DNA of 64,000 nt from Dehalococcoidia bacterium. Lineage in GTDB: Bacteria > Chloroflexota > Dehalococcoidia > Lucifugimonadales > UBA826. Below the pieces are notes generated by a model. That model had not been told where the DNA came from and did no database searches. It saw nothing but the letters and a program-made list of their open reading frames with translations. How positions within the stretch are numbered: position 1 is the stretch's first letter; every line of letters starts with the position of its first letter. Shown in pieces: positions 3,059 to 51,267 of this stretch. The position numbers were made by a program, and so were the translations under genes. The stretch covers positions 3,110-67,109 of the forward strand of contig JAPYSB010000008.1 in assembly GCA_029936675.1 (NCBI GenBank), read 5' to 3'.

Positions 3059-4198
3059 TTACTCCAAACCAAGTTGGTAATGTTTACCCTCAGTTTTTAT
3101 GGAGGGAGCTACAACTATTTCGACTGAGTGCATGTCTTTGATATTGCGCGCTCCTACCATACCCATACAGGCTTTGAGTGCACCGACTAAATTTTGTGTA
3201 CCATTCGATACTGATGAAGGACCATAAAACAATTCTTTGAGAGTTCCTTTGATTCCAACATTAACCCTCGTACCCCTAGGTAAAGCCGGGTGTGGACTGG
3301 CCATTCCCCAATTAAATCCCTGTCCCGGCGCTTCCTTCGATTGAGCGAGAGGGGTTCCTATCATCACGGCATCGGCTCCACTGGCGATTGCTTTACAAAG
3401 TTCACCTCCGGTTCTGATCCCACCGTCGGTTATGATCGGTATGTATTTACCGGTTCTCTGGAAAAAATCGTCTCTTGCTAGAGCGCAATCCATAGTGGCT
3501 GTCACTTGAGGTATTCCAACTCCCGTGACCTCCCTGGTAGTACATGCTGCACCTGGTCCAACTCCAATGAGGATACCGTGTATACCAGTCTCCATTATTT
3601 CCGTGGCAACATCGTATCCTACACAGTTGCCTACTAAAATTGGCACTTTCACCATTTCAAGCAACTCTGGGAATTGAAGACCTTTTATGCTGTTGGAGAA
3701 ATGCCGAGCGGTAGTCACTGTCGATTGAACCACAATCATATCTGCTCCCGCTTCAACTGCTTGTGGAGCATACGTTTTTGTAAATGCTGGGGTTACAGAA
3801 ACGGAACATTTTGAACCTGTTGCCTTGATTTGTTCCACTCTTTTTCCGACTAGCGCCTCTTTTATCGGTGATGAGTAGACTTTTTGCATTACGGCGGTAA
3901 CCATGTCATTTGGGGTGTCGGCGATTTCTGCAAGTACCCCTTCAGGATCTTCATACCGAGTTTGTACCCCTTCCAAGTTCATTACGCTTAGGGCACCCTG
4001 TTCGTGCATTTTGCCTATGAAATATGGGTTGGACACGGCATCCATCGCTGACCCTAGGATTGGTATGTTGATACTCACATCACCTAACTTAAATGAGGTA
4101 TCGGTCATTTCAGGGTTAACTGTTACTGTCCCTGGGGCAATTGCTACTTCATCAAATCCATAAGTCCTTCTTAATTCGCGAAGATTCGGCATTTCCAA
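3059..4198 (-). CDS. IMP dehydrogenase/GMP reductase-family protein lacking the CBS subdomain (GuaB3-like)
   Basis: 379 aa TIM-barrel. Active-site loop GPGAACTTREVTGVGIPQ and GGIRTGGELCKAIASGADAVMIG. Too short to contain the CBS pair. Confidence 0.85.
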   Translation of the reverse strand: MEMPNLRELRRTYGFDEVAIAPGTVTVNPEMTDTSFKLGDVSINIPILGSAMDAVSNPYFIGKMHEQGALSVMNLEGVQTRYEDPEGVLAEIADTPNDMVTAVMQKVYSSPIKEALVGKRVEQIKATGSKCSVSVTPAFTKTYAPQAVEAGADMIVVQSTVTTARHFSNSIKGLQFPELLEMVKVPILVGNCVGYDVATEIMETGIHGILIGVGPGAACTTREVTGVGIPQVTATMDCALARDDFFQRTGKYIPIITDGGIRTGGELCKAIASGADAVMIGTPLAQSKEAPGQGFNWGMASPHPALPRGTRVNVGIKGTLKELFYGPSSVSNGTQNLVGALKACMGMVGARNIKDMHSVEIVVAPSIKTEGKHYQLGLE

Positions 4199-4470
4199 CT
4201 CCTCAAATCGAATTCGTTTAAATTAGAGATATTATAAATTTTTCTTCCGGATGGGATGTTCAAAATTTATCTGAATAATCTTAATGGTTTATCCACTAGG
4301 CGAATGTGATTAGAATGGTACGTAGAGCCGAAAACCCAATCCAACGGGTTGATCGATAGATGCTCCATAATAACAAGATACGTATAGTGGGATGCGACGA
4401 TGATATGGCTGAATTGTGAAAAGTGTCAATACAGTGACGCGGATAGCCATAATTCGAAAGGAGATTTAAA

Positions 4471-5643
4471 TTGTCTCTCAGTACTGTCAGTCTAGAGGAT
4501 CAAGTTAGAGAATGTGCCGTTTCTCTTGGATTTGACCTTGTTGGTATAACCGATTCTGGACCATTCGAAAGCGATGAAAAGGCCGCCATTAAACGTATAA
4601 ATGACGGGCATATGGAAGGGTATCAATGGTATACAAAGGAACGGGTACGAAAGATGAATCGCCCCCAACTTCTTTTAGAAAATGCTAAATCAGTAATATC
4701 CCTAGCGACAAGTTACCTAACAACGGAGCCCGATACAGGCACATTTAAGAATGGGCGAGTAGCTAGATATGCGTGGGGAGATGATTATCATGAAGTCCTT
4801 AAATCTAAACTAAAGGACTTTTGCGTAAAACTGCAAGAAATCTCTGGCAGAGATATAAATACGCGTATCTTTGTGGATGATGGACCAATGAATGATAGGG
4901 CTGCTGCACGAAGGTCCGGGGTAGGGTGGTTTGGTAAAAACACAAATATATTGACTCCAACCCATGGGTCATGGGTTTTTCTATCCCAAGTGATTACCGA
5001 TTTGAATTTAAAACCGGATAACCCGCTAAAAAAAACTTGTGGCAACTGTGTGAAATGTATAGATGACTGCCCCACTGGAGCAATTGTAGCCCCTTATGTG
5101 ATAGATAATGAAAAATGCATCTCTTATCTAACAATCGAGCTTCGAGGTGTTATTCCTAGGAAATTGAGAGCCCTAATGGGGGATTGGATTTTTGGTTGTG
5201 ATATCTGTCAGGACGTGTGTCCTGTTAATAAAAAAGCTTCAAAAAGCAATCTTGGTGCGTTTTATCAAAGGCCTGGCTTTTCAACACCAGATCTGGTTGA
5301 AATATTGAGTATGGATCAGGCTGAATTCAGTAGAAAATATAAAAATAGCCCTATAAAAAGAACCAAATTGGTAGGGTTAAAAAGAAATGCATGTGTTGCT
5401 TTAGGGAATAATGGCGACCCCAATGCAATTAAAGCGCTATCCACCGCTTTAAAAATGACTGAAACTGTAATTCGCATACATGCCGCTTGGGCCTTAGGGG
5501 TGATAGGGGGGAAAATTCCTCTAGCACTGCTAGAGGAGGCACTCCAATCCGAGGAAGACCAGGACACGATAGATGAAATTCAGATGTCTATTGGAGAAAT
5601 TGGCATCCGGATATCTCGCAAGGAATTAAAAAATGCCGGGTAA
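4471..5643 (+). CDS. queG: Epoxyqueuosine reductase
   Basis: 390 aa with a TTG start. Two ferredoxin-type clusters (CGNCVKCIDDCP, CDICQDVCP), a WGDDYH region and a C-terminal HEAT-like repeat (IRIHAAWALG). Confidence 0.92.
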   Translation: MSLSTVSLEDQVRECAVSLGFDLVGITDSGPFESDEKAAIKRINDGHMEGYQWYTKERVRKMNRPQLLLENAKSVISLATSYLTTEPDTGTFKNGRVARYAWGDDYHEVLKSKLKDFCVKLQEISGRDINTRIFVDDGPMNDRAAARRSGVGWFGKNTNILTPTHGSWVFLSQVITDLNLKPDNPLKKTCGNCVKCIDDCPTGAIVAPYVIDNEKCISYLTIELRGVIPRKLRALMGDWIFGCDICQDVCPVNKKASKSNLGAFYQRPGFSTPDLVEILSMDQAEFSRKYKNSPIKRTKLVGLKRNACVALGNNGDPNAIKALSTALKMTETVIRIHAAWALGVIGGKIPLALLEEALQSEEDQDTIDEIQMSIGEIGIRISRKELKNAG

Positions 5644-6394
5644 GATTTACGTCATTAATGTCGGGTCTAATGCTAGCCACAGTTTTTGTAGCCCGATCTT
5701 TAGTGATCAGACTTTTGAATTTATACCGATACCAGAAGATAGGCAGCTGCCTTCCAGTCATGGATTGGAGTATCGAAACTTGAAATCACATTACGATCCT
5801 GAACAGAATTTATCTCGCTACATTCCCAAAAATATGTTTGGTGCTACGGTGCACAGTGATCCTGAGTTCGACACTTACACATACGGGGATAATTGTGAGG
5901 TTAATCCCCGGGCAATGGGAATGAGAAATGTGACAAGAGGAGACTTCCTTTTGTTTTTATCAAGGTTGCAATATTGGGAAGCAGGCGAACCAAGGGATGA
6001 TTTTGGATTCTATTTTATTGGCTTTATACACGTTGAACAGATTCTGCGATCAGTTTGGGCAACCCCACCTGAACTGCAGATGGAGCGCTTTCATGCCAAT
6101 GCACACCTAAGACGTGGAATGGCTAACCGGGAACTTTGGGATGGATTTTGGGTATTCGGTGGTTCATCGTGGTCAAGACGATTTTATAAAGCGGTTCCTG
6201 TAACAAGAGACCTTTGTGAACAGGTTTTTGTTACAGCTAAAGGGTCTCCGTGGGAATGGAAAGAGAAAAGAACCGAATTGCAAACGATTGGGTCCTATAC
6301 AAGGAGTTGCAGATGTGCAATAGATCCTGCTGCCGCAAACGGGAAAGCCAGGGCTAATATTTTATGGGACCGGATAGAGAAATATAGCCGATGA
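5633..6394 (+). CDS. Conserved-looking hypothetical protein, translationally coupled to queG
   Basis: 253 aa. The ATG lies 11 nt inside the end of queG. N-terminus is IYVINVGSNASHSFCSPIFSDQTFEFIPIPE. I recognise no catalytic motif with certainty. Confidence 0.7.
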   Translation: MPGKIYVINVGSNASHSFCSPIFSDQTFEFIPIPEDRQLPSSHGLEYRNLKSHYDPEQNLSRYIPKNMFGATVHSDPEFDTYTYGDNCEVNPRAMGMRNVTRGDFLLFLSRLQYWEAGEPRDDFGFYFIGFIHVEQILRSVWATPPELQMERFHANAHLRRGMANRELWDGFWVFGGSSWSRRFYKAVPVTRDLCEQVFVTAKGSPWEWKEKRTELQTIGSYTRSCRCAIDPAAANGKARANILWDRIEKYSR

Positions 6395-6408
6395 TTGTTT
6401 TGTTTTAA

Positions 6409-6438
6409 TTGACACTATTTGTGACTGGGACATATAAT
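6409..6438 (+). promoter_or_regulatory. Candidate sigma70-type promoter for the metal ABC operon
   Basis: TTGACA (6409-6414), an 18-nt spacer, then TATAAT (6433-6438). TGTGAC is repeated at 6419 and 6481. Confidence 0.45.
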
Positions 6439-6490
6439 CTATACCCTCAATTGATACTAAGTCTCAATATAATAAATGTAGTTGTGACAT

Positions 6491-7309
6491 ATGAAAAATC
6501 AAGGACAGTTTCCCGAATTGGATGTCGAAGATCACTGTTTGAAGTGTGGGATCAATTGCATATGCGCAATAAGAGCTGTTGGAGCATGCGTAGAATTTAA
6601 CGGTAATTTAGTTTTGGATGATGTTACATTTTCCGTAGGTAAGGGGATTTTATCTGCGTTGGTAGGCCCCAATGCTGGTGGGAAAAGTACCTTATTCAAC
6701 GCCATCGCTGGGATCCAAGATATAGTCCATGGTTCGATATTTGTTAATGGCCTTTCCCCCAAAGATTCAAAAGGTTCTATCAGTTATATACCCCAAAGAG
6801 AAAATGTTAATTGGAGATTTTCATTGACGGCTCAAGAAGTGGTTGACTTAGGTCTAGTAAAAAACAAATCTCTTTTAGGGTTTTCAAGAAAAGGAAGCCT
6901 AGAGAAGGTTCGATCTGCTTTAGAACGGGTAGATATGTGGAATTACAAGGACCAGTTAATTAGCGAAATGTCAGGAGGACAGCGGCAAAGAGTTTTTATT
7001 GCGAGAGCTTTATGTCAAGAAGCGAATATATTGCTTTTAGACGAGGCTTTCAGCGGAGTGGATGTGGCATCTCAATTCGGGTTGATTGATATGCTGAGAG
7101 AACTGAAAGATCAAGGGAAAACTATAGTAATTGCGACTCATGATCTTAATACGCTAGCCGATCGATTCGATGAGGTTATATGTCTCAATAGGCACGTATG
7201 TGCACAAGGATCTCCGGACACAGCATTTACTCCGGCGGTTTTGGAAGAATTATATGGACCCCACCCCGGAATGTTTTTGAGCCATTCCTTAGGTCATCAC
7301 GATGATTAA
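6491..7309 (+). CDS. Metal (Zn/Mn-type, ABC-3 system) ABC transporter ATP-binding protein
   Basis: Walker A GPNAGGKST, signature SGGQRQR, Walker B LLLDEA, and a ZnuC/MntB/TroB-like tail (ICLNRHVCAQGSP). The start is uncertain because no clear SD is present. Confidence 0.88.
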   Translation: MKNQGQFPELDVEDHCLKCGINCICAIRAVGACVEFNGNLVLDDVTFSVGKGILSALVGPNAGGKSTLFNAIAGIQDIVHGSIFVNGLSPKDSKGSISYIPQRENVNWRFSLTAQEVVDLGLVKNKSLLGFSRKGSLEKVRSALERVDMWNYKDQLISEMSGGQRQRVFIARALCQEANILLLDEAFSGVDVASQFGLIDMLRELKDQGKTIVIATHDLNTLADRFDEVICLNRHVCAQGSPDTAFTPAVLEELYGPHPGMFLSHSLGHHDD

Positions 7310-8141
7310 CATCATCCTTGAGCCGTTCCAATATGACTTTATGCTGCGAGCTCTATTTGTGTCGAGTATGGTTGGGATTATATGTCCTATTTTAGGAGCC
7401 TATGTAGTCATTAGAGGTATGGGTTTTATGGGTGACGCTATGGCTCACGCAGTGATGCCGGGCATAGTGATTGCCCTAATCTTTGGCCTCTCCCCCTTTT
7501 TGGGTTCTGTGCCGATGGCAATTGTTGTTGCCGTGTCAGTTGGTTATTTAATTCTCAAGAAGGACGTTAGTATGGACACGGCCGTCGGGGTCATGTTCGC
7601 AGGTTTGTTCTCTTTGGGGCTAGTTTTGATGTCTTTGGTTGGTGGCCTTACTGTAAGCATTGAAGACATATTACTCGGACAGATTTTGGGCGTGTCTAAG
7701 GCCGATATGTTGATTTCATTTGTTTTAACTGTTCTGGTGTTAATTACTCTTGTTACCTTTCACAAGCAACTTATTTTTTCTGGATTTGATCCTGTGGGGT
7801 CAGTCGTAGCAGGGTTAAATGCTGGGGCCTTGAATTACATGTTCTTAATTTTGTTAGGCATATCCATTGTTGTTACCTTGCACGTGGTTGGAGTGGTTTT
7901 GGTTGTAGGGTTGTTGATAACTCCTGCTGCTGCGTCTCAAATGGTGATGCGAAGGTTCACGAGAGCTATGCTTTTAGGAATAATCTTTGGGTTGTTTTCT
8001 ACAGTATCTGGCTTATATATATCCTATTATTTCGATCTTCCTTCGGGACCTGTAATGACTTTGATCTCGTTTGTGATCTTTCTGTGCTGCGCCATTTATG
8101 GAAGATTTTTTTCTCAGACACAAACGTCACATTTGATGTAG
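7302..8141 (+). CDS. ABC-3 family metal transporter permease (ZnuB/MntC/TroC-like)
   Basis: 279 aa polytopic membrane protein with a GDAMAHAVMPG motif. 8-nt overlap with the upstream ATPase gene. Confidence 0.88.
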   Translation: MINIILEPFQYDFMLRALFVSSMVGIICPILGAYVVIRGMGFMGDAMAHAVMPGIVIALIFGLSPFLGSVPMAIVVAVSVGYLILKKDVSMDTAVGVMFAGLFSLGLVLMSLVGGLTVSIEDILLGQILGVSKADMLISFVLTVLVLITLVTFHKQLIFSGFDPVGSVVAGLNAGALNYMFLILLGISIVVTLHVVGVVLVVGLLITPAAASQMVMRRFTRAMLLGIIFGLFSTVSGLYISYYFDLPSGPVMTLISFVIFLCCAIYGRFFSQTQTSHLM

Positions 8142-8542
8142 AACTCTATGTTGTGGCCAACAATCGCACCAGGTATGTCTGACTCGATACCTTTTAATAA
8201 TCTTTCAACAGTCGAGGCTTTAAACTCTCCCACCCTGCCACATGATACGCAGACAGTATGATGGTGGTGATCTACCCGAGAGAGTGAATATCTAGGTTTT
8301 CCACCTGGTATAGAAAGACGGCATATAACGTTTGCGTTCAGCAGAATTTTCAGAGTTCGAAATACAGTAGCCCTGGATACATTCGGCAGATCATCTGCCA
8401 TTTGCTCAGTGGTAAACCCTTCAGCAGCAGCATGAATATAATCTACTATTCTTTGTCTTGGGGCCGTAATTCTAAGTCCATGATCCTCCAGTAGGGCCAA
8501 TAGATTCGGCCTAGTCGTGTTTGAATTAGAGTTTGTCATCAC
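8114..8542 (-). CDS. Fur-family metalloregulator (Zur/Fur-like)
   Basis: 142 aa. Winged helix N-terminus, HHHHTVCVSCG and C-terminal CDVC metal sites. Convergent with the permease gene and overlapping it by 28 nt. Confidence 0.88.
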   Translation of the reverse strand: MMTNSNSNTTRPNLLALLEDHGLRITAPRQRIVDYIHAAAEGFTTEQMADDLPNVSRATVFRTLKILLNANVICRLSIPGGKPRYSLSRVDHHHHTVCVSCGRVGEFKASTVERLLKGIESDIPGAIVGHNIEFYIKCDVCV

Positions 8543-49042: not shown

Positions 49043-50071
49043 TTGAAGACTGCTGATTTTGACTACAAACTTCCACAAGAATTAATTGCGCAATCTCCAT
49101 CAGAACCAAGAGATCACTCACGCCTTATGATACTAGATCGAAAAAACGGCCGAATTGAGCACCGTAAATTCTATAATATTTCTGAATATTTAAATCCTGG
49201 GGATGTGTTGGTATTTAATGATAGTAGGGTCATACCAGCAAGGATGTATGGATTAACAGTGGATAGAAGAAGCCGAGTCGAACTACTGTTGCTTTCTCAG
49301 ATCAGTGCTAATGTTTGGAAGACCTTGGTTAAACCGGGACGAAGAATGAGAAAGGGGGCAAAATTTCTAATAAACGGAACTGATGGTAAACAATTAATTG
49401 GGAGAGTTCGAGAGCAACACCTTGATGGTAGTCGAGAAGTTGAGTTCGAATCTGAGTTAAACTTCGGGTACTTTGGGTCGCTGCCTCTTCCTCCATACAT
49501 ACATGAAACAACAGCACCTGCTGACCGGTACCAGACTGTATACGCTCAAAAAGAAGGAAGTATCGCAGCTCCGACTGCTGGTCTCCATTTCACAAAAAAA
49601 TTACTTAAACGGATATCTGCAAAAGGAGTGTCGCTAGAATTTGTAACCCTTCATGTCGGTTGGGATTCCTTCCGCCCGCTGAAGACCAATGATCCTTCAG
49701 AGCATAAAATGCATTCAGAATACTGGGAACTTACCCGAGACGTGTGCGACAGAATAAATCTGGCAAAAAGTGAAGGAAGAAGAGTTATATCTGTAGGGAC
49801 CACGGCGGTACGGCTTCTAGAAAATGCTGCCAGAATCAATTTATCTCCCACTTTAAGTCCAGGTTCTGGATGGGCTGACATTTATATTAAACCAGGATAT
49901 CAATTCCGTGTTGTGGATAGTTTAATCACAAATTTCCACTTGCCTAAATCTACTTTGCTAATGTTAACCAGCGCCCTTGCCGGTAGGGATAATGTTTTAA
50001 AGGCTTATAAAGAAGCGATCCAGAACCGATATAGGTTTTATAGCTTTGGTGATGCGATGTTCATAGTTTAA
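49043..50071 (+). CDS. queA: S-adenosylmethionine:tRNA ribosyltransferase-isomerase
   Basis: TTG start. FDYKLPQELIAQSP...PPYI...YQTVYA...GS.AAPTAGLHFT...YRFYSFGDAM. Confidence 0.95.
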   Translation: MKTADFDYKLPQELIAQSPSEPRDHSRLMILDRKNGRIEHRKFYNISEYLNPGDVLVFNDSRVIPARMYGLTVDRRSRVELLLLSQISANVWKTLVKPGRRMRKGAKFLINGTDGKQLIGRVREQHLDGSREVEFESELNFGYFGSLPLPPYIHETTAPADRYQTVYAQKEGSIAAPTAGLHFTKKLLKRISAKGVSLEFVTLHVGWDSFRPLKTNDPSEHKMHSEYWELTRDVCDRINLAKSEGRRVISVGTTAVRLLENAARINLSPTLSPGSGWADIYIKPGYQFRVVDSLITNFHLPKSTLLMLTSALAGRDNVLKAYKEAIQNRYRFYSFGDAMFIV

Positions 50072-50136
50072 ACTCCAAAAGGGAAGTGTATAATCCGCGT
50101 TACTATGCTGTTATTGAATCGTGTGAGGTTTTCCTA

Positions 50137-51267
50137 ATGTATTCTCCAGGTAAAGACATATTAGAATCTCTAGGGCTCAGTCCCATTATATCTGCTACTG
50201 GTACAGTGACTGCTTATGGCGGTAGTAGGCTTAGACCGGAAGTAATGGATGCCATGAATCGGGCATCTAACACTATGGTGAATATGGATGAACTCAATCT
50301 AGCTGTTGGTAAGCAAATAGCAGCAGCCACCGGTGCAGAGGCCGGAATGGTCACCAGTGGCGCAGCTGGAGGTCTTATTCTGCAGGCAGCAGCGGTAGTT
50401 GCTGGTAATGATCCGATTAGAATGAAAAAACTACCAGACACAAACGGGATGAAAAATGAAATTATCATACATAGAAGCCATAGATTTCCTTATGACCAAT
50501 GTTACCTGTCCGTGGGGGCCAAATTTGTAGAAATTGGCGATGGCCGCAGGTGCCAACCATGGGAGTTGGAAGGTGCATTCACCGAAAACACAGCTGCTGT
50601 TGCATATTTGTTTTCACCGTTCATAACCAGAAGAGCCTTGCCTTTTGAATATGTATGTGAAGTAGCTCATTCCAAAGGAATACCTGTTATTGTAGACGCC
50701 GCTTCGTACTTACCTCCTAGAGCTAACATTACCCGCTTCATAAAAGAAGGGGCTGATATGGTTATTTATAGCGGTGGCAAAGGAATAAAAGGTCCACAAG
50801 GTACCGGTGTGCTTTGTGGCAGGTCAGATCTCATTGAGGCCGCATATGCCAACGCGAGCCCCCATCAATTTATAGGTAGAGGTTTGAAGGTTGCAAAAGA
50901 GGAAATTATCGGTATATCAAAAGCATTAGAAATATTTTTGTCTGAAGATGAGGAAGAAGAAAACAAAAGATACCAGCAAATGTGTGATCAAATCGTGGAT
51001 GCCTTAATAGAAATTCCGGGCGTCGGGTTGCAGACCAAATGCGATCCATATGATTATCTAATACCTACGGCTTTAATTACATTTGACCTCGATAGAAATG
51101 GGTTGTCACGAGATCAGGTTTGGGAACAGATGGTAGCAGGAGACCCACCTATATATCTCAGTAATTTGGGCACACCAGATGAATTGGCTGTTGATCCCTT
51201 CAATATTGCCGACTCAGAACTGGAAATGGTTATTGGTAGACTACGGGAATTACTGGTTCAAAATTAG
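50137..51267 (+). CDS. SelA-like (DgaE-like) PLP-dependent enzyme
   Basis: YSGGKGIKGPQGTGVLCGR resembles the SelA/DgaE PLP-lysine region. Length is about 376 aa, which lacks the long SelA N-terminal domain. The start may instead be GTG 50086. Confidence 0.7.
   Translation: MYSPGKDILESLGLSPIISATGTVTAYGGSRLRPEVMDAMNRASNTMVNMDELNLAVGKQIAAATGAEAGMVTSGAAGGLILQAAAVVAGNDPIRMKKLPDTNGMKNEIIIHRSHRFPYDQCYLSVGAKFVEIGDGRRCQPWELEGAFTENTAAVAYLFSPFITRRALPFEYVCEVAHSKGIPVIVDAASYLPPRANITRFIKEGADMVIYSGGKGIKGPQGTGVLCGRSDLIEAAYANASPHQFIGRGLKVAKEEIIGISKALEIFLSEDEEEENKRYQQMCDQIVDALIEIPGVGLQTKCDPYDYLIPTALITFDLDRNGLSRDQVWEQMVAGDPPIYLSNLGTPDELAVDPFNIADSELEMVIGRLRELLVQN

What the first reader, a model, noticed from the sequence alone, without database searches (positions are those of the whole stretch)
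5633..6394. Uncharacterised 253-aa ORF overlapping the end of queG
The ORF starts at ATG 5633, which is 11 nt before the queG stop (5641-5643). That arrangement is typical of translational coupling and co-function.

The product has no motif I can assign. Its N-terminus is IYVINVGSNASHSFCSPIFSDQTFEFIPIPE, followed by HSDPEF, GDFLLFLSRL, FYFIGFIHVEQI and NAHLRRG. There is no signal peptide and no TM segment.

From memory only, and unverified, the N-terminal pattern resembles families labelled as nucleotide-modification-associated domains. The GD-x-hydrophobic beta pattern is reminiscent of PUA/EVE-like nucleic-acid-binding barrels.

Inference: its position behind the enzyme that makes queuosine-34, with queA also in the window, suggests a possible accessory or further-modifying factor for Q-tRNA.
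Basis: partly seen in the sequence, partly recalled or inferred. Interest (0 to 1): 0.55.

Follow-up and report, generated by a model that had tools for sequence, protein, structure and literature searches.

The report
Nmad3-family gene coupled to queG
The ORF is a real, conserved gene of the uncharacterised "Nmad3" family, probably built on a modified-base-reader (PUA/EVE-like) fold, and in one group of marine SAR202 bacteria it is kept in a tight two-gene unit with the queuosine enzyme QueG; that makes it a reasonable but unproven lead for tRNA-modification biology.

Summary
A 253-aa ORF (5633-6394, +) starts 11 nt before the queG stop. It is under purifying selection (dN/dS 0.10-0.14).

It is a clear member of Pfam Nmad3 (PF18754): 70.6 bits against a cutoff of 27, and 99.9% by hhalign to canonical members. 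No member of this family has a known function.

Two independent AlphaFold models (pLDDT 95 and 93.5) have only PUA-superfamily proteins (EVE, YTH, McrB-N, ASCH) as their top matches. Every match is below the significance threshold.

In about 100 related loci, queG sits immediately upstream in 24 of 25 scorable loci of the query's own clade. Spacers run from -44 to +14 nt and the outer flanks vary. A second lineage also has queG next door, in co-directional and divergent forms. About 30 informative loci of the same subfamily lack queG, and six have Nmad2 next door instead.

Canonical Nmad3 forms Nmad2-Nmad3 cassettes in defence islands of Burkholderiales. One haloarchaeal plasmid copy lies beside a QueC-family gene. 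queA is 43 kb away and is not relevant to this locus.

Verdict: this is a new member of a known but uncharacterised family. A role in queuosine or 7-deazaguanine metabolism is plausible (about 0.4) but not shown.

The parts
5633..6394 (+). 253-aa Nmad3-family gene (the finding)
   Evidence: ORF. Pfam PF18754 at 70.6 bits, cutoff 27. hhalign to canonical Nmad3: 99.9%, E=7e-37. dN/dS 0.10-0.14. AF2 pLDDT 95.1.
4471..5643 (+). queG, epoxyqueuosine reductase, the upstream operon partner
   Evidence: TIGR00276 at 341 bits, cutoff 200. QueG_DUF1730, Fer4_16 and HEAT_2. Immediately upstream in 24 of 25 clade-A loci.
5633..5643 (+). 11-nt overlap between the ORF's start and the end of queG
   Evidence: Read directly from the sequence. 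The same -11 overlap is found in L001-L003 and L028. Other clade members range from -44 to +14 nt.
5620..5625 (+). Shine-Dalgarno-like AAGGAA inside the queG 3' end, 7 nt before the ATG
   Evidence: Read directly from the sequence. Conserved as AAGGAA or GAGGAA in L001-L004. Its function is inferred.
5852..5869 (+). H74-S-D76-P77-E78-F79 motif (family-wide H-x-D-P-E-F)
   Evidence: H74, D76, P77 and F79 are invariant and E78 is at least 90% conserved in 51 subfamily members. The same motif is invariant in canonical Nmad3.
5939..5968 (+). G103-D104-FLLFLSRL, a G-D turn followed by a beta strand, as typically seen in EVE/ASCH-type barrels
   Evidence: G103 and D104 are invariant. The strand spans residues 105-116 in the model. 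Canonical members share the G-D motif. The EVE/ASCH comparison is from my own knowledge.
6098..6118 (+). N156-A157-H158-L-R-R161-G (family-wide N-A-H-x-R-R)
   Evidence: N156 is invariant; A157, H158 and R161 are at least 90% conserved. N156, A157, H158 and R161 are invariant in canonical Nmad3.
6281..6313 (+). Q217-T-I-G-S-Y-T-R-S-C-R227, a C-terminal motif specific to the subfamily
   Evidence: Q217, G220, S221, Y222, R224 and R227 are invariant in the subfamily. The region lies beyond the part that aligns to Pfam (profile positions 2-173) or to canonical members (query residues 1-201).
6409..6438 (+). Perfect sigma-70 consensus (TTGACA-18-TATAAT) just after the ORF's stop; the likely start of the next transcription unit (ABC transporter)
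   Evidence: 12 of 12 matches in the consensus scan. This is a consensus match only, and it marks the 3' boundary of the queG-Nmad3 unit.
3059..4198 (-). IMPDH/GMP-reductase-family gene, divergent from queG and syntenic in much of the clade
   Evidence: PF00478 at 161 bits. It occupies position -2 in 11 of 18 clade-A loci.

Best explanation
Shown: the ORF encodes a soluble protein of the Nmad3 family (PF18754).

Probable: its core is a PUA-superfamily barrel of the EVE/YTH/ASCH type. Domains of this type hold a flipped-out or exposed modified base in a pocket.

Shown by conservation, with expression itself inferred: in this SAR202 lineage the gene is expressed as the second cistron of a two-gene queG operon. 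Its start codon and an SD-like site lie inside the end of queG, so translation is probably coupled to that of QueG.

Inferred: it recognises or processes a 7-deazaguanine nucleoside. The likeliest targets are epoxyqueuosine or queuosine at tRNA position 34, or the free Q, preQ or queuine nucleoside, nucleotide or base. Under this reading it acts as a lineage-specific accessory to QueG, not as a required subunit. The many invariant polar residues favour a catalytic or tight ligand-binding site over a passive nucleic-acid binder: N9, N13, E29, E35, H74, D76, Y84, R93, D104, N156, Q217, S221, Y222, R224 and R227.
For: Family: Pfam Nmad3 at 70.6 bits, cutoff 27. hhalign to canonical Nmad3 gives 99.9%, E=7e-37.

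Real gene: dN/dS is 0.10-0.14.

Fold: two independent high-confidence models. Their top Foldseek hits are exclusively PUA-superfamily proteins.
- Window model: ASCH, YqfB and McrB-N, and viral ASCH/DUF3850.
- Canonical model: EVE proteins PH1033, MJECL36 and THYN1 with 5mC DNA, plus YTHDF2, McrB-N and VcaM4I, with probability up to 0.95 and TMt up to 0.50.

Operon:
- queG is at position -1 in 24 of 25 clade-A loci, with spacers of -44 to +14 nt.
- Position -2 is conserved in 11 of 18 and position +1 in 9 of 23.
- A perfect promoter consensus follows the ORF's stop, and there is no terminator between queG and the ORF.

Recurrence outside the main clade:
- L115: queG co-directional with a 3-nt spacer, in entirely different flanks.
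- L067: co-directional, behind DUF2203.
- L025 and L073: queG divergent, about 116 nt from the Nmad3 match by tblastn.

Joint loss: one deletion truncates both genes in L022.

Second 7-deazaguanine link: a canonical Nmad3 on a Halorientalis plasmid lies beside a QueC-family gene (84.6 bits) and a PfkB / nucleoside 2-deoxyribosyltransferase fusion.

Background from established knowledge: the PUA domain was named partly after archaeosine tRNA-guanine transglycosylase, so PUA-type modules working with 7-deazaguanine tRNA enzymes have precedent. PUA-like domains as modified-base readers, and YqfB as an ASCH hydrolase, are reviewed in PMC12707154.
Against: - About 30 informative loci of the same subfamily have no queG within the fetched flank (up to 6 kb). 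Six have Nmad2 next door instead.
- In Burkholderiales the family forms Nmad2-Nmad3 cassettes in defence islands with no que genes.
- Haloarchaeal chromosomal copies are solo.
- QueG works without any such partner in most bacteria (general knowledge), so any role must be accessory.
- No other que or tgt gene is near any Nmad3 locus except the one plasmid. queA is 43 kb away.
- Much of the linkage could be a single ancestral arrangement inherited vertically. The IMPDH-like neighbour is also partly syntenic.
- Every fold hit is above E=1e-3.
- The tree is neighbour-joining without bootstrap. The metagenome sample kept the 80 best matches, which favours the query's own clade.
Confidence: 0.4

Rival explanations
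1. Operon passenger. The protein has the generic, still unknown Nmad3 function on some nucleotide or nucleic-acid modification unrelated to queuosine. It sits behind queG only because one ancestral SAR202 arrangement has been inherited and compacted.
For: - Most queG-linked loci form one clade in the tree.
- The IMPDH-like gene is co-syntenic in 11 of 18.
- About 30 informative subfamily loci lack queG.
- Other lineages keep a different stable neighbourhood of membrane protein, Kelch-like protein, epimerase and ROK kinase.
- No riboswitch or shared regulatory RNA is present.
Against: - The queG-Nmad3 junction is far more conserved than either outer flank (24/25 against 11/18 and 9/23).
- Adjacency recurs in other flanks and in divergent orientation.
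- A QueC-family gene neighbours a canonical Nmad3 in an archaeal plasmid.
Confidence: 0.35
2. Domesticated defence module. Nmad3 is basically a sensor or enzyme for modified foreign DNA or nucleotides, in the manner of the reader domains of Type IV restriction enzymes. The SAR202 copy keeps that role, or a derived role in surveying DNA or the nucleotide pool, independently of QueG.
For: - Nmad2-Nmad3 overlapping cassettes lie among OLD/UvrD, Vsr, Type ISP R-M, SIR2, WYL and integrase genes.
- The Cupriavidus pHG1 copy lies among toxin-antitoxin, restriction endonuclease and helicase genes.
- The Nitrospirota copy is in a region with a transposase, Fic and toxin-antitoxin genes.
- Nmad2 is a component of an experimentally validated anti-phage system (PMC13092281 supplement).
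- The structural neighbours include McrB-N and VcaM4I.
- P0223 carries a C-terminal stretch that I read as a PD-(D/E)xK-like motif. There is no Pfam support for this.
Against: - The window copy gives no PADLOC hit.
- It has no Nmad2 or nuclease partner anywhere in the 64 kb.
- Its composition matches its surroundings and the neighbourhood is housekeeping.
- It is stably syntenic across a deep clade, which is not the patchy distribution typical of defence genes.
- The subfamily is absent from viral contigs and phage records.
Confidence: 0.15
3. Not a functional gene: a chance ORF, or an overlapping-frame artefact at the end of queG.
For: None beyond the fact that the ORF listing is purely mechanical.
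Against: - dN/dS is 0.10-0.14.
- There are 28 invariant columns across 51 homologues.
- The Pfam hit is well above threshold.
- The AF2 model has pLDDT 95.
- There are more than 1000 clusters of relatives.
Confidence: 0.01

Closest known systems
Pfam PF18754 Nmad3 ('Nucleotide modification associated domain 3'; NCBI name 'Nmad3 family putative nucleotide modification protein')
   Same: Scores above the gathering threshold. Profile-profile match of 99.9% over residues 1-201. Shares the N-V-G-x-N, P-I-P-E, H-x-D-P-E-F, Y-G-D, G-D and N-A-H-x-R-R motifs. Similar secondary-structure order in the two models.
   Different: The C-terminal 50 or so residues, carrying an invariant Q-x-I-G-S-Y-T-R-x-x-R motif, do not align to the Pfam profile or to canonical members. 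The partner here is queG, not Nmad2. The setting is a housekeeping chromosomal region of SAR202, not a defence island or plasmid. No member of the family has been characterised experimentally.
EVE and YTH modified-base reader domains of the PUA superfamily (PH1033, MJECL36, human THYN1, YTHDF2, the McrB N-terminal domain, VcaM4I)
   Same: These are the best structural neighbours of the canonical Nmad3 model: probability 0.80-0.95, TMt 0.43-0.50. McrB-N is also a top hit for the window model. Both share a G-D turn followed by a long beta hairpin.
   Different: Every E-value is above 1e-3, with sequence identity of 6-14%. Nmad3 is about 100 residues larger, with extra N- and C-terminal elements. 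No Pfam PUA-clan family is hit by sequence. An aromatic cage has not been verified.
ASCH-domain enzymes (E. coli YqfB N4-acetylcytidine amidohydrolase; Zymomonas ZmASCH)
   Same: These are the top structural neighbours of the window model in the PDB and in viral proteins. They show that PUA-like barrels can be small hydrolases acting on modified nucleosides or RNA (PMC12707154).
   Different: TM-scores are 0.3-0.44 when normalised to the small target and only 0.2 when normalised to the query. No shared catalytic motif has been shown.
PUA domains of archaeosine tRNA-guanine transglycosylase and ArcS (from established knowledge; not tested here)
   Same: A PUA-type module that works with a 7-deazaguanine tRNA-modification enzyme.
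   Different: In those enzymes the PUA domain is fused to the enzyme and binds the tRNA acceptor end. Here the protein is separate, and neither its target nor any contact with QueG is known.
Nmad2-containing anti-phage system 'NTTI' (DefensePredictor, PMC13092281)
   Same: Nmad2 is the recurrent neighbour or fusion partner of Nmad3 in other lineages.
   Different: Nmad3 is not part of that validated system. Nmad2 is absent from the window and is unrelated to Nmad3 in sequence.

Membership tests
Pfam Nmad3 (PF18754) | Scores above the curated gathering threshold of the family HMM | tested here: met
   70.6 bits against a cutoff of 27, E=2.1e-19. Every listed homologue carries a precomputed PF18754 hit.
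Pfam Nmad3 (PF18754) | Profile-level homology to canonical members from Halobacteria and Burkholderiales | tested here: met
   hhalign A1 against A3: probability 99.9%, E=7.3e-37, 186 columns.
Pfam Nmad3 (PF18754) | Shared conserved motifs (P-I-P-E, H-x-D-P-E-F, Y-G-D, G-D, N-A-H-x-R-R) | tested here: met
   Invariant or nearly invariant in the subfamily and in canonical members.
Pfam Nmad3 (PF18754) | Full-length match to the family profile (247 positions) | tested here: not met
   Only profile positions 2-173 align, and hhalign stops at query residue 201. The C-terminal region is specific to the subfamily. This marks a divergent subfamily and does not exclude membership.
Nmad2-Nmad3 two-gene cassette (recurrent in defence islands) | An adjacent or fused Nmad2 (PF18753) partner | tested here: not met
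   No Nmad2-like sequence anywhere in the 64-kb window. Nmad2 is adjacent in L016, L017, L078, L085, L097, L111, L112 and L114, and fused in P0244.
PUA superfamily (EVE/YTH/ASCH-like barrels) | Pseudo-barrel fold similar to solved members | tested here: inconclusive
PUA superfamily (EVE/YTH/ASCH-like barrels) | Sequence-profile similarity to a PUA-clan Pfam family or to a solved structure | tested here: not met
   No Pfam family other than Nmad3 at E<=1. No PDB sequence match by phmmer or by profile.
PUA superfamily (EVE/YTH/ASCH-like barrels) | A pocket that holds a modified base | not testable with these tools
Queuosine pathway accessory (functional partner of QueG) | Adjacency to queG conserved across lineages | tested here: inconclusive
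   36 co-directional, 2 divergent, about 31 informative loci without queG, and 6 with Nmad2. 24 of 25 within clade A. Recurrences in L067, L025, L073 and L115.
Queuosine pathway accessory (functional partner of QueG) | Co-location with other que or tgt genes | tested here: not met
   No QueC or QueA homologue lies near any fetched locus except the Halorientalis plasmid. Tgt was not probed. queA is 43 kb away in the window.
Queuosine pathway accessory (functional partner of QueG) | An effect on Q or oQ in tRNA, or binding of 7-deazaguanine ligands | not testable with these tools
   Needs LC-MS of tRNA nucleosides and binding assays.
Known anti-phage defence systems (PADLOC) | Match to a defence-system protein model | tested here: not met
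   No PADLOC hit at E<=1. Only a marginal PHROG match of unknown function, E=9e-4.

The most novel reading that the evidence does not exclude
Nmad3 is a family of PUA-like proteins specific for 7-deazaguanine. In SAR202 the queG-coupled copy would read, further modify or salvage queuosine or epoxyqueuosine, which would be a new step in bacterial Q metabolism. In defence islands the Nmad2-Nmad3 cassettes would use the same pocket to detect or destroy phage DNA or nucleotides modified with 7-deazaguanine.
Probability: 0.15. Interest if true: 0.75.

Novelty: new member of a known kind. Interest (0 to 1): 0.42.

Why it matters
Nmad3 is a widespread family with no experimental function. It has more than 1000 clusters at 50% identity and occurs in Chloroflexota, Halobacteria, Burkholderiales, Nitrospirota and other groups. 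A stable, translationally coupled pairing with QueG gives a concrete and cheap hypothesis to test: tRNA nucleoside LC-MS, and binding of Q, oQ and preQ ligands. If the hypothesis holds, it would add a new player to queuosine biology in abundant deep-ocean bacteria. It would also suggest what the defence-island Nmad2-Nmad3 cassettes recognise. If it fails, the locus is an ordinary conserved hypothetical gene riding in an operon.

Tried and rejected
Searches that found nothing:
- NCBIfam, PADLOC and PDB sequence searches gave nothing for the ORF.
- PHROGs gave only a marginal family of unknown function.
- No relative was found in phage records or viral contigs.
- Rfam found no riboswitch or other RNA family in 3900-6800; the two hits are far below gathering scores.
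- tBLASTn for QueC and QueA homologues and for the Halorientalis neighbours found nothing else in any fetched locus.
- Literature searches for Nmad3 found no relevant paper.

Ideas tested and dropped:
- Nmad3 and Nmad2 as paralogues: rejected, hhalign probability 0.2%.
- The extra domains of the long relatives (P0194 and P0213 N-terminal domain, P0223 termini, Halorientalis C-terminal extension) have no Pfam match even at E<=1. My PD-(D/E)xK reading of the P0223 C-terminus is therefore unsupported.
- queA as supporting context: rejected, because it is 43 kb away.
- Recent horizontal transfer: no compositional signal.

Resources that were unavailable:
- The paper I believe, from memory, introduced the Nmad names (Iyer et al. 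2013, NAR) and the 2024 7-deazaguanine review were not held.
Full report
OBSERVATION

The ORF is exactly as described. It runs 5633-6394 on the + strand, starts with ATG and encodes 253 aa, and all the quoted peptides are present. queG runs 4471-5643 and its TAA stop is at 5641-5643, so the ORF's start codon lies 11 nt inside queG in another frame. queG is genuine: TIGR00276 scores 341 bits against a cutoff of 200, with QueG_DUF1730, the double 4Fe-4S domain and HEAT repeats.

An AAGGAA sits 7 nt before the ATG and is kept in the four closest orthologous loci. Most homologues begin at the same M-x-G-[RK]-I-[FY] position.

The gene is under purifying selection, with dN/dS of 0.10-0.14 against seven orthologues at 88-97% protein identity. 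Its composition (GC 0.41-0.43) matches its neighbours.

It lies at 49043-50071, 43 kb away, next to a class-V aminotransferase/SelA-like gene. It says nothing about this locus.

WHAT THE PROTEIN IS

Pfam places it in Nmad3, 'Nucleotide modification associated domain 3' (PF18754). The score is 70.6 bits against a cutoff of 27, covering residues 5-168 and profile positions 2-173 of 247.

NCBIfam, PADLOC and PDB sequence searches return nothing.

A profile of 51 subfamily members matches a profile of 30 canonical Nmad3 proteins from Halobacteria and Burkholderiales at 99.9% probability (E=7e-37) over residues 1-201.

The two groups share a set of motifs:
- N-V-G-x-N near the N-terminus
- P-I-P-E
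- H-x-D-P-E-F
- Y-G-D
- G-D followed by a strand
- N-A-H-x-R-R

The last 50 or so residues carry an invariant Q-x-I-G-S-Y-T-R-x-x-R motif and do not align to canonical members. This is a distinct subfamily.

The subfamily is found mainly in SAR202 and other Dehalococcoidia, with a few members in Nitrospirota and Nitrospinota. The closest genome is a SAR202 group II MAG at 97% identity (L001). An exhaustive profile search finds 1053 clusters at 50% identity. I found no paper that characterises Nmad3.

FOLD

The AlphaFold2 model of the window protein is very confident (pLDDT 95.1, pTM 0.92) and mostly beta.

Foldseek finds nothing below E=1e-3. Even so, the top PDB hits all belong to one superfamily: ZmASCH, the m5C-reading N-terminal domain of McrB, EF3133, YqfB (ac4C amidohydrolase), EOLA1 and TRIP4. 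The top viral hits are ASCH and DUF3850 proteins.

An independent model of a canonical Nmad3 (Halorussus, pLDDT 93.5) gives a clearer picture. Its top 15 PDB hits are:
- EVE domains: PH1033, MJECL36, Rpa0253, human THYN1 on 5mC DNA, and the VcaM4I restriction enzyme
- YTH domains: YTHDF2 and Mmi1
- the McrB N-terminal domain
- AF2351

Probabilities reach 0.95 and target-normalised TM-scores reach 0.50.

The 28 invariant columns include many polar residues: N9, N13, E29, E35, H74, D76, Y84, R93, D104, N156, Q217, S221, Y222, R224 and R227. That looks more like an active site or a tight ligand pocket than a generic binding surface. This last point is inference.

IS THE queG LINKAGE REAL?

I gathered 23 genome loci, 80 metagenome loci and several annotated contigs.

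Among 103 full-length proteins:
- 36 have queG immediately upstream and co-directional
- 2 have queG adjacent and divergent
- 6 have Nmad2 next door
- 31 have neither, despite adequate flanks
- 28 are uninformative

No locus has both partners.

In a neighbour-joining tree, nearly all queG-linked loci form one clade, which contains the window. Within that clade:
- queG is the immediate upstream gene in 24 of 25 scorable loci
- the spacer between the queG stop and the ORF start runs from -44 to +14 nt
- the gene beyond queG (IMPDH-like) is the same in 11 of 18
- the downstream gene is the same in only 9 of 23, with at least six alternatives

The queG-Nmad3 pair is therefore the conserved unit.

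In the window, a perfect TTGACA-18-TATAAT consensus follows the ORF's stop at 6409-6438. It lies ahead of an ABC transporter (ABC_tran and ABC-3), which is followed by a Fur-family regulator on the opposite strand. That fits a separate downstream transcription unit. No terminator-like site lies between queG and the ORF.

Adjacency also occurs outside the core clade:
- L115: 46% identity, 3-nt spacer, completely different flanks
- L067: 42% identity, co-directional, behind DUF2203 and a FecCD/periplasmic-binding-protein transporter
- L025 and L073: 45% and 43% identity, with queG divergent and about 116 nt from the Nmad3 match by tblastn

In L022 a single deletion has removed the 3' part of queG and the 5' part of the ORF together.

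Several points argue against a functional link:
- Large clades of the same subfamily lack queG within the fetched flank (up to 6 kb). They keep other stable neighbourhoods.
- Clade A's exception, L046, has an RraA-like gene upstream.
- The metagenome sample kept the 80 best matches, which favours the query's clade.
- The tree has no support values.

THE WIDER FAMILY

The closest non-queG clade has Nmad2 (PF18753) directly downstream (L016, L017, L078, L085 and L114). One protein fuses Nmad3 to Nmad2 (P0244).

In Noviherbaspirillum and Rhodoferax, overlapping Nmad2-Nmad3 pairs lie inside clear defence islands. The neighbours include an OLD-family nuclease with a UvrD helicase, Vsr, a Type ISP enzyme, SIR2, WYL proteins and an integrase.

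On Cupriavidus megaplasmid pHG1 the gene lies among toxin-antitoxin, restriction endonuclease and helicase genes.

Nmad2, but not Nmad3, is one gene of an experimentally validated E. coli anti-phage system. That system also contains thymidylate synthase, a dNMP kinase and a 5-hmdU DNA kinase (PMC13092281 and its supplements).

Nmad2 and Nmad3 are unrelated in sequence.

Haloarchaeal chromosomal copies are solo.

One further link to 7-deazaguanine chemistry exists. On Halorientalis plasmid pHOS300, a canonical Nmad3 (123 bits, full-length profile) carries a 200-aa C-terminal extension. It lies beside a QueC-family gene (84.6 bits) and a PfkB-kinase / nucleoside 2-deoxyribosyltransferase fusion. 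That extension resembles an unannotated domain that is N-terminally fused in P0194 and P0213 and encoded just upstream of Nmad3 in L101.

No member of the subfamily was found in viral contigs or phage genomes.

MECHANISM AND RIVALS

Shown:
- The gene is real.
- It belongs to Nmad3.
- It forms a conserved, tightly packed pair with queG in this clade.

Probable:
- The core is a PUA-like barrel.
- Expression is bicistronic and translationally coupled.

Inferred (about 0.4):
- The protein recognises or processes a 7-deazaguanine nucleoside. The candidates are oQ or Q at tRNA position 34, or free Q, preQ or queuine species.
- It acts as a lineage-specific accessory to QueG.

Rivals:
- Main rival (0.35): it is an operon passenger with a generic, unknown Nmad3 function.
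- Second rival (0.15): it keeps a defence-type role in sensing modified foreign nucleic acids.
- The chance-ORF explanation is excluded.

The Q link cannot be required for QueG activity in general, because most bacteria have QueG without Nmad3 (general knowledge).

COMPARISON, NOVELTY AND SCORE

The protein is a member of a known, named and functionally uncharacterised family. It forms a divergent subfamily with its own C-terminal motif and a genomic partner (queG) that, as far as I could find, has not been reported for this family.

I file it as a new member of a known kind.

Interest is moderate (0.42). It is a clean and testable lead for people who work on queuosine and on Nmad-type defence cassettes. 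The linkage is specific to certain lineages, and no function is demonstrated.

Noticed in passing
L022:5450-6480 (MAG CB27_Tmax.29): A single deletion joins the first 150 or so codons of queG, out of frame, to the last 100 or so codons of the Nmad3 gene. Both genes were therefore inactivated together in that MAG, unless this is an assembly artefact.
   Followed up: partly
window 6409-6438 (+): A perfect sigma-70 consensus (TTGACA, 18 nt, TATAAT; 12/12) sits between the ORF's stop and the ABC-transporter ATPase gene at 6491. An 11/12 match on the minus strand at 4429-4400 faces the IMPDH-like gene.
   Followed up: partly
window 6491-8542: An ABC_tran ATPase and an ABC-3 permease are followed by a convergent Fur-family regulator whose 3' end overlaps the permease gene. 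This looks like a Zn/Mn-type uptake unit with its regulator. No solute-binding protein gene was seen next to it.
   Followed up: partly
window 3059-4198 (-): An IMPDH/GMP-reductase-family gene of 379 aa, apparently without a CBS insert, lies divergent from queG. It is syntenic with the queG-Nmad3 pair in 11 of 18 clade loci. A purine-nucleotide enzyme next to a 7-deazaguanine enzyme may or may not be meaningful.
   Followed up: no
L111:6319-7660 and L112:6303-7642; also L016, L017, L078, L085, L097, L114: Nmad2 and Nmad3 form a recurrent adjacent two-gene cassette. In Burkholderiales the order is Nmad2 then Nmad3, and the cassette lies inside defence islands (OLD/UvrD, Vsr, Type ISP, SIR2, WYL, integrase). 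This may be an undescribed candidate defence module.
   Followed up: partly
L108:3250-13466 (Halorientalis sp. IM1011 plasmid pHOS300): A cluster contains a canonical Nmad3 with a 200-aa extension, a short QueC-family protein, a PfkB-kinase / nucleoside 2-deoxyribosyltransferase fusion, an AAA ATPase and several proteins with no Pfam hit. It looks like a system for a 7-deazapurine nucleoside or nucleotide.
   Followed up: partly
P0194 and P0213 residues 1-195; L108:8721-9287; L101:5446-5973: An unannotated domain of about 190 aa is a second recurrent partner of Nmad3. It is fused N-terminally, fused C-terminally, or encoded just upstream. It has no Pfam match at E<=1.
   Followed up: partly
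L053 (between queG and the Nmad3 gene, a gap of about 760 nt): This is one clade-A locus where an extra ORF is inserted between queG and the Nmad3 gene. It is the only scorable exception to the tight spacing.
   Followed up: no
L067:616-4632: Here the queG-Nmad3 pair lies behind DUF2203 and next to a FecCD permease with a periplasmic binding protein. That transporter type includes vitamin B12 importers, which is notable because QueG depends on cobalamin.
   Followed up: no
window 49043-51267: queA (342 aa, TTG start) is followed 15 nt later by a class-V aminotransferase/SelA-like gene, not by tgt.
   Followed up: no
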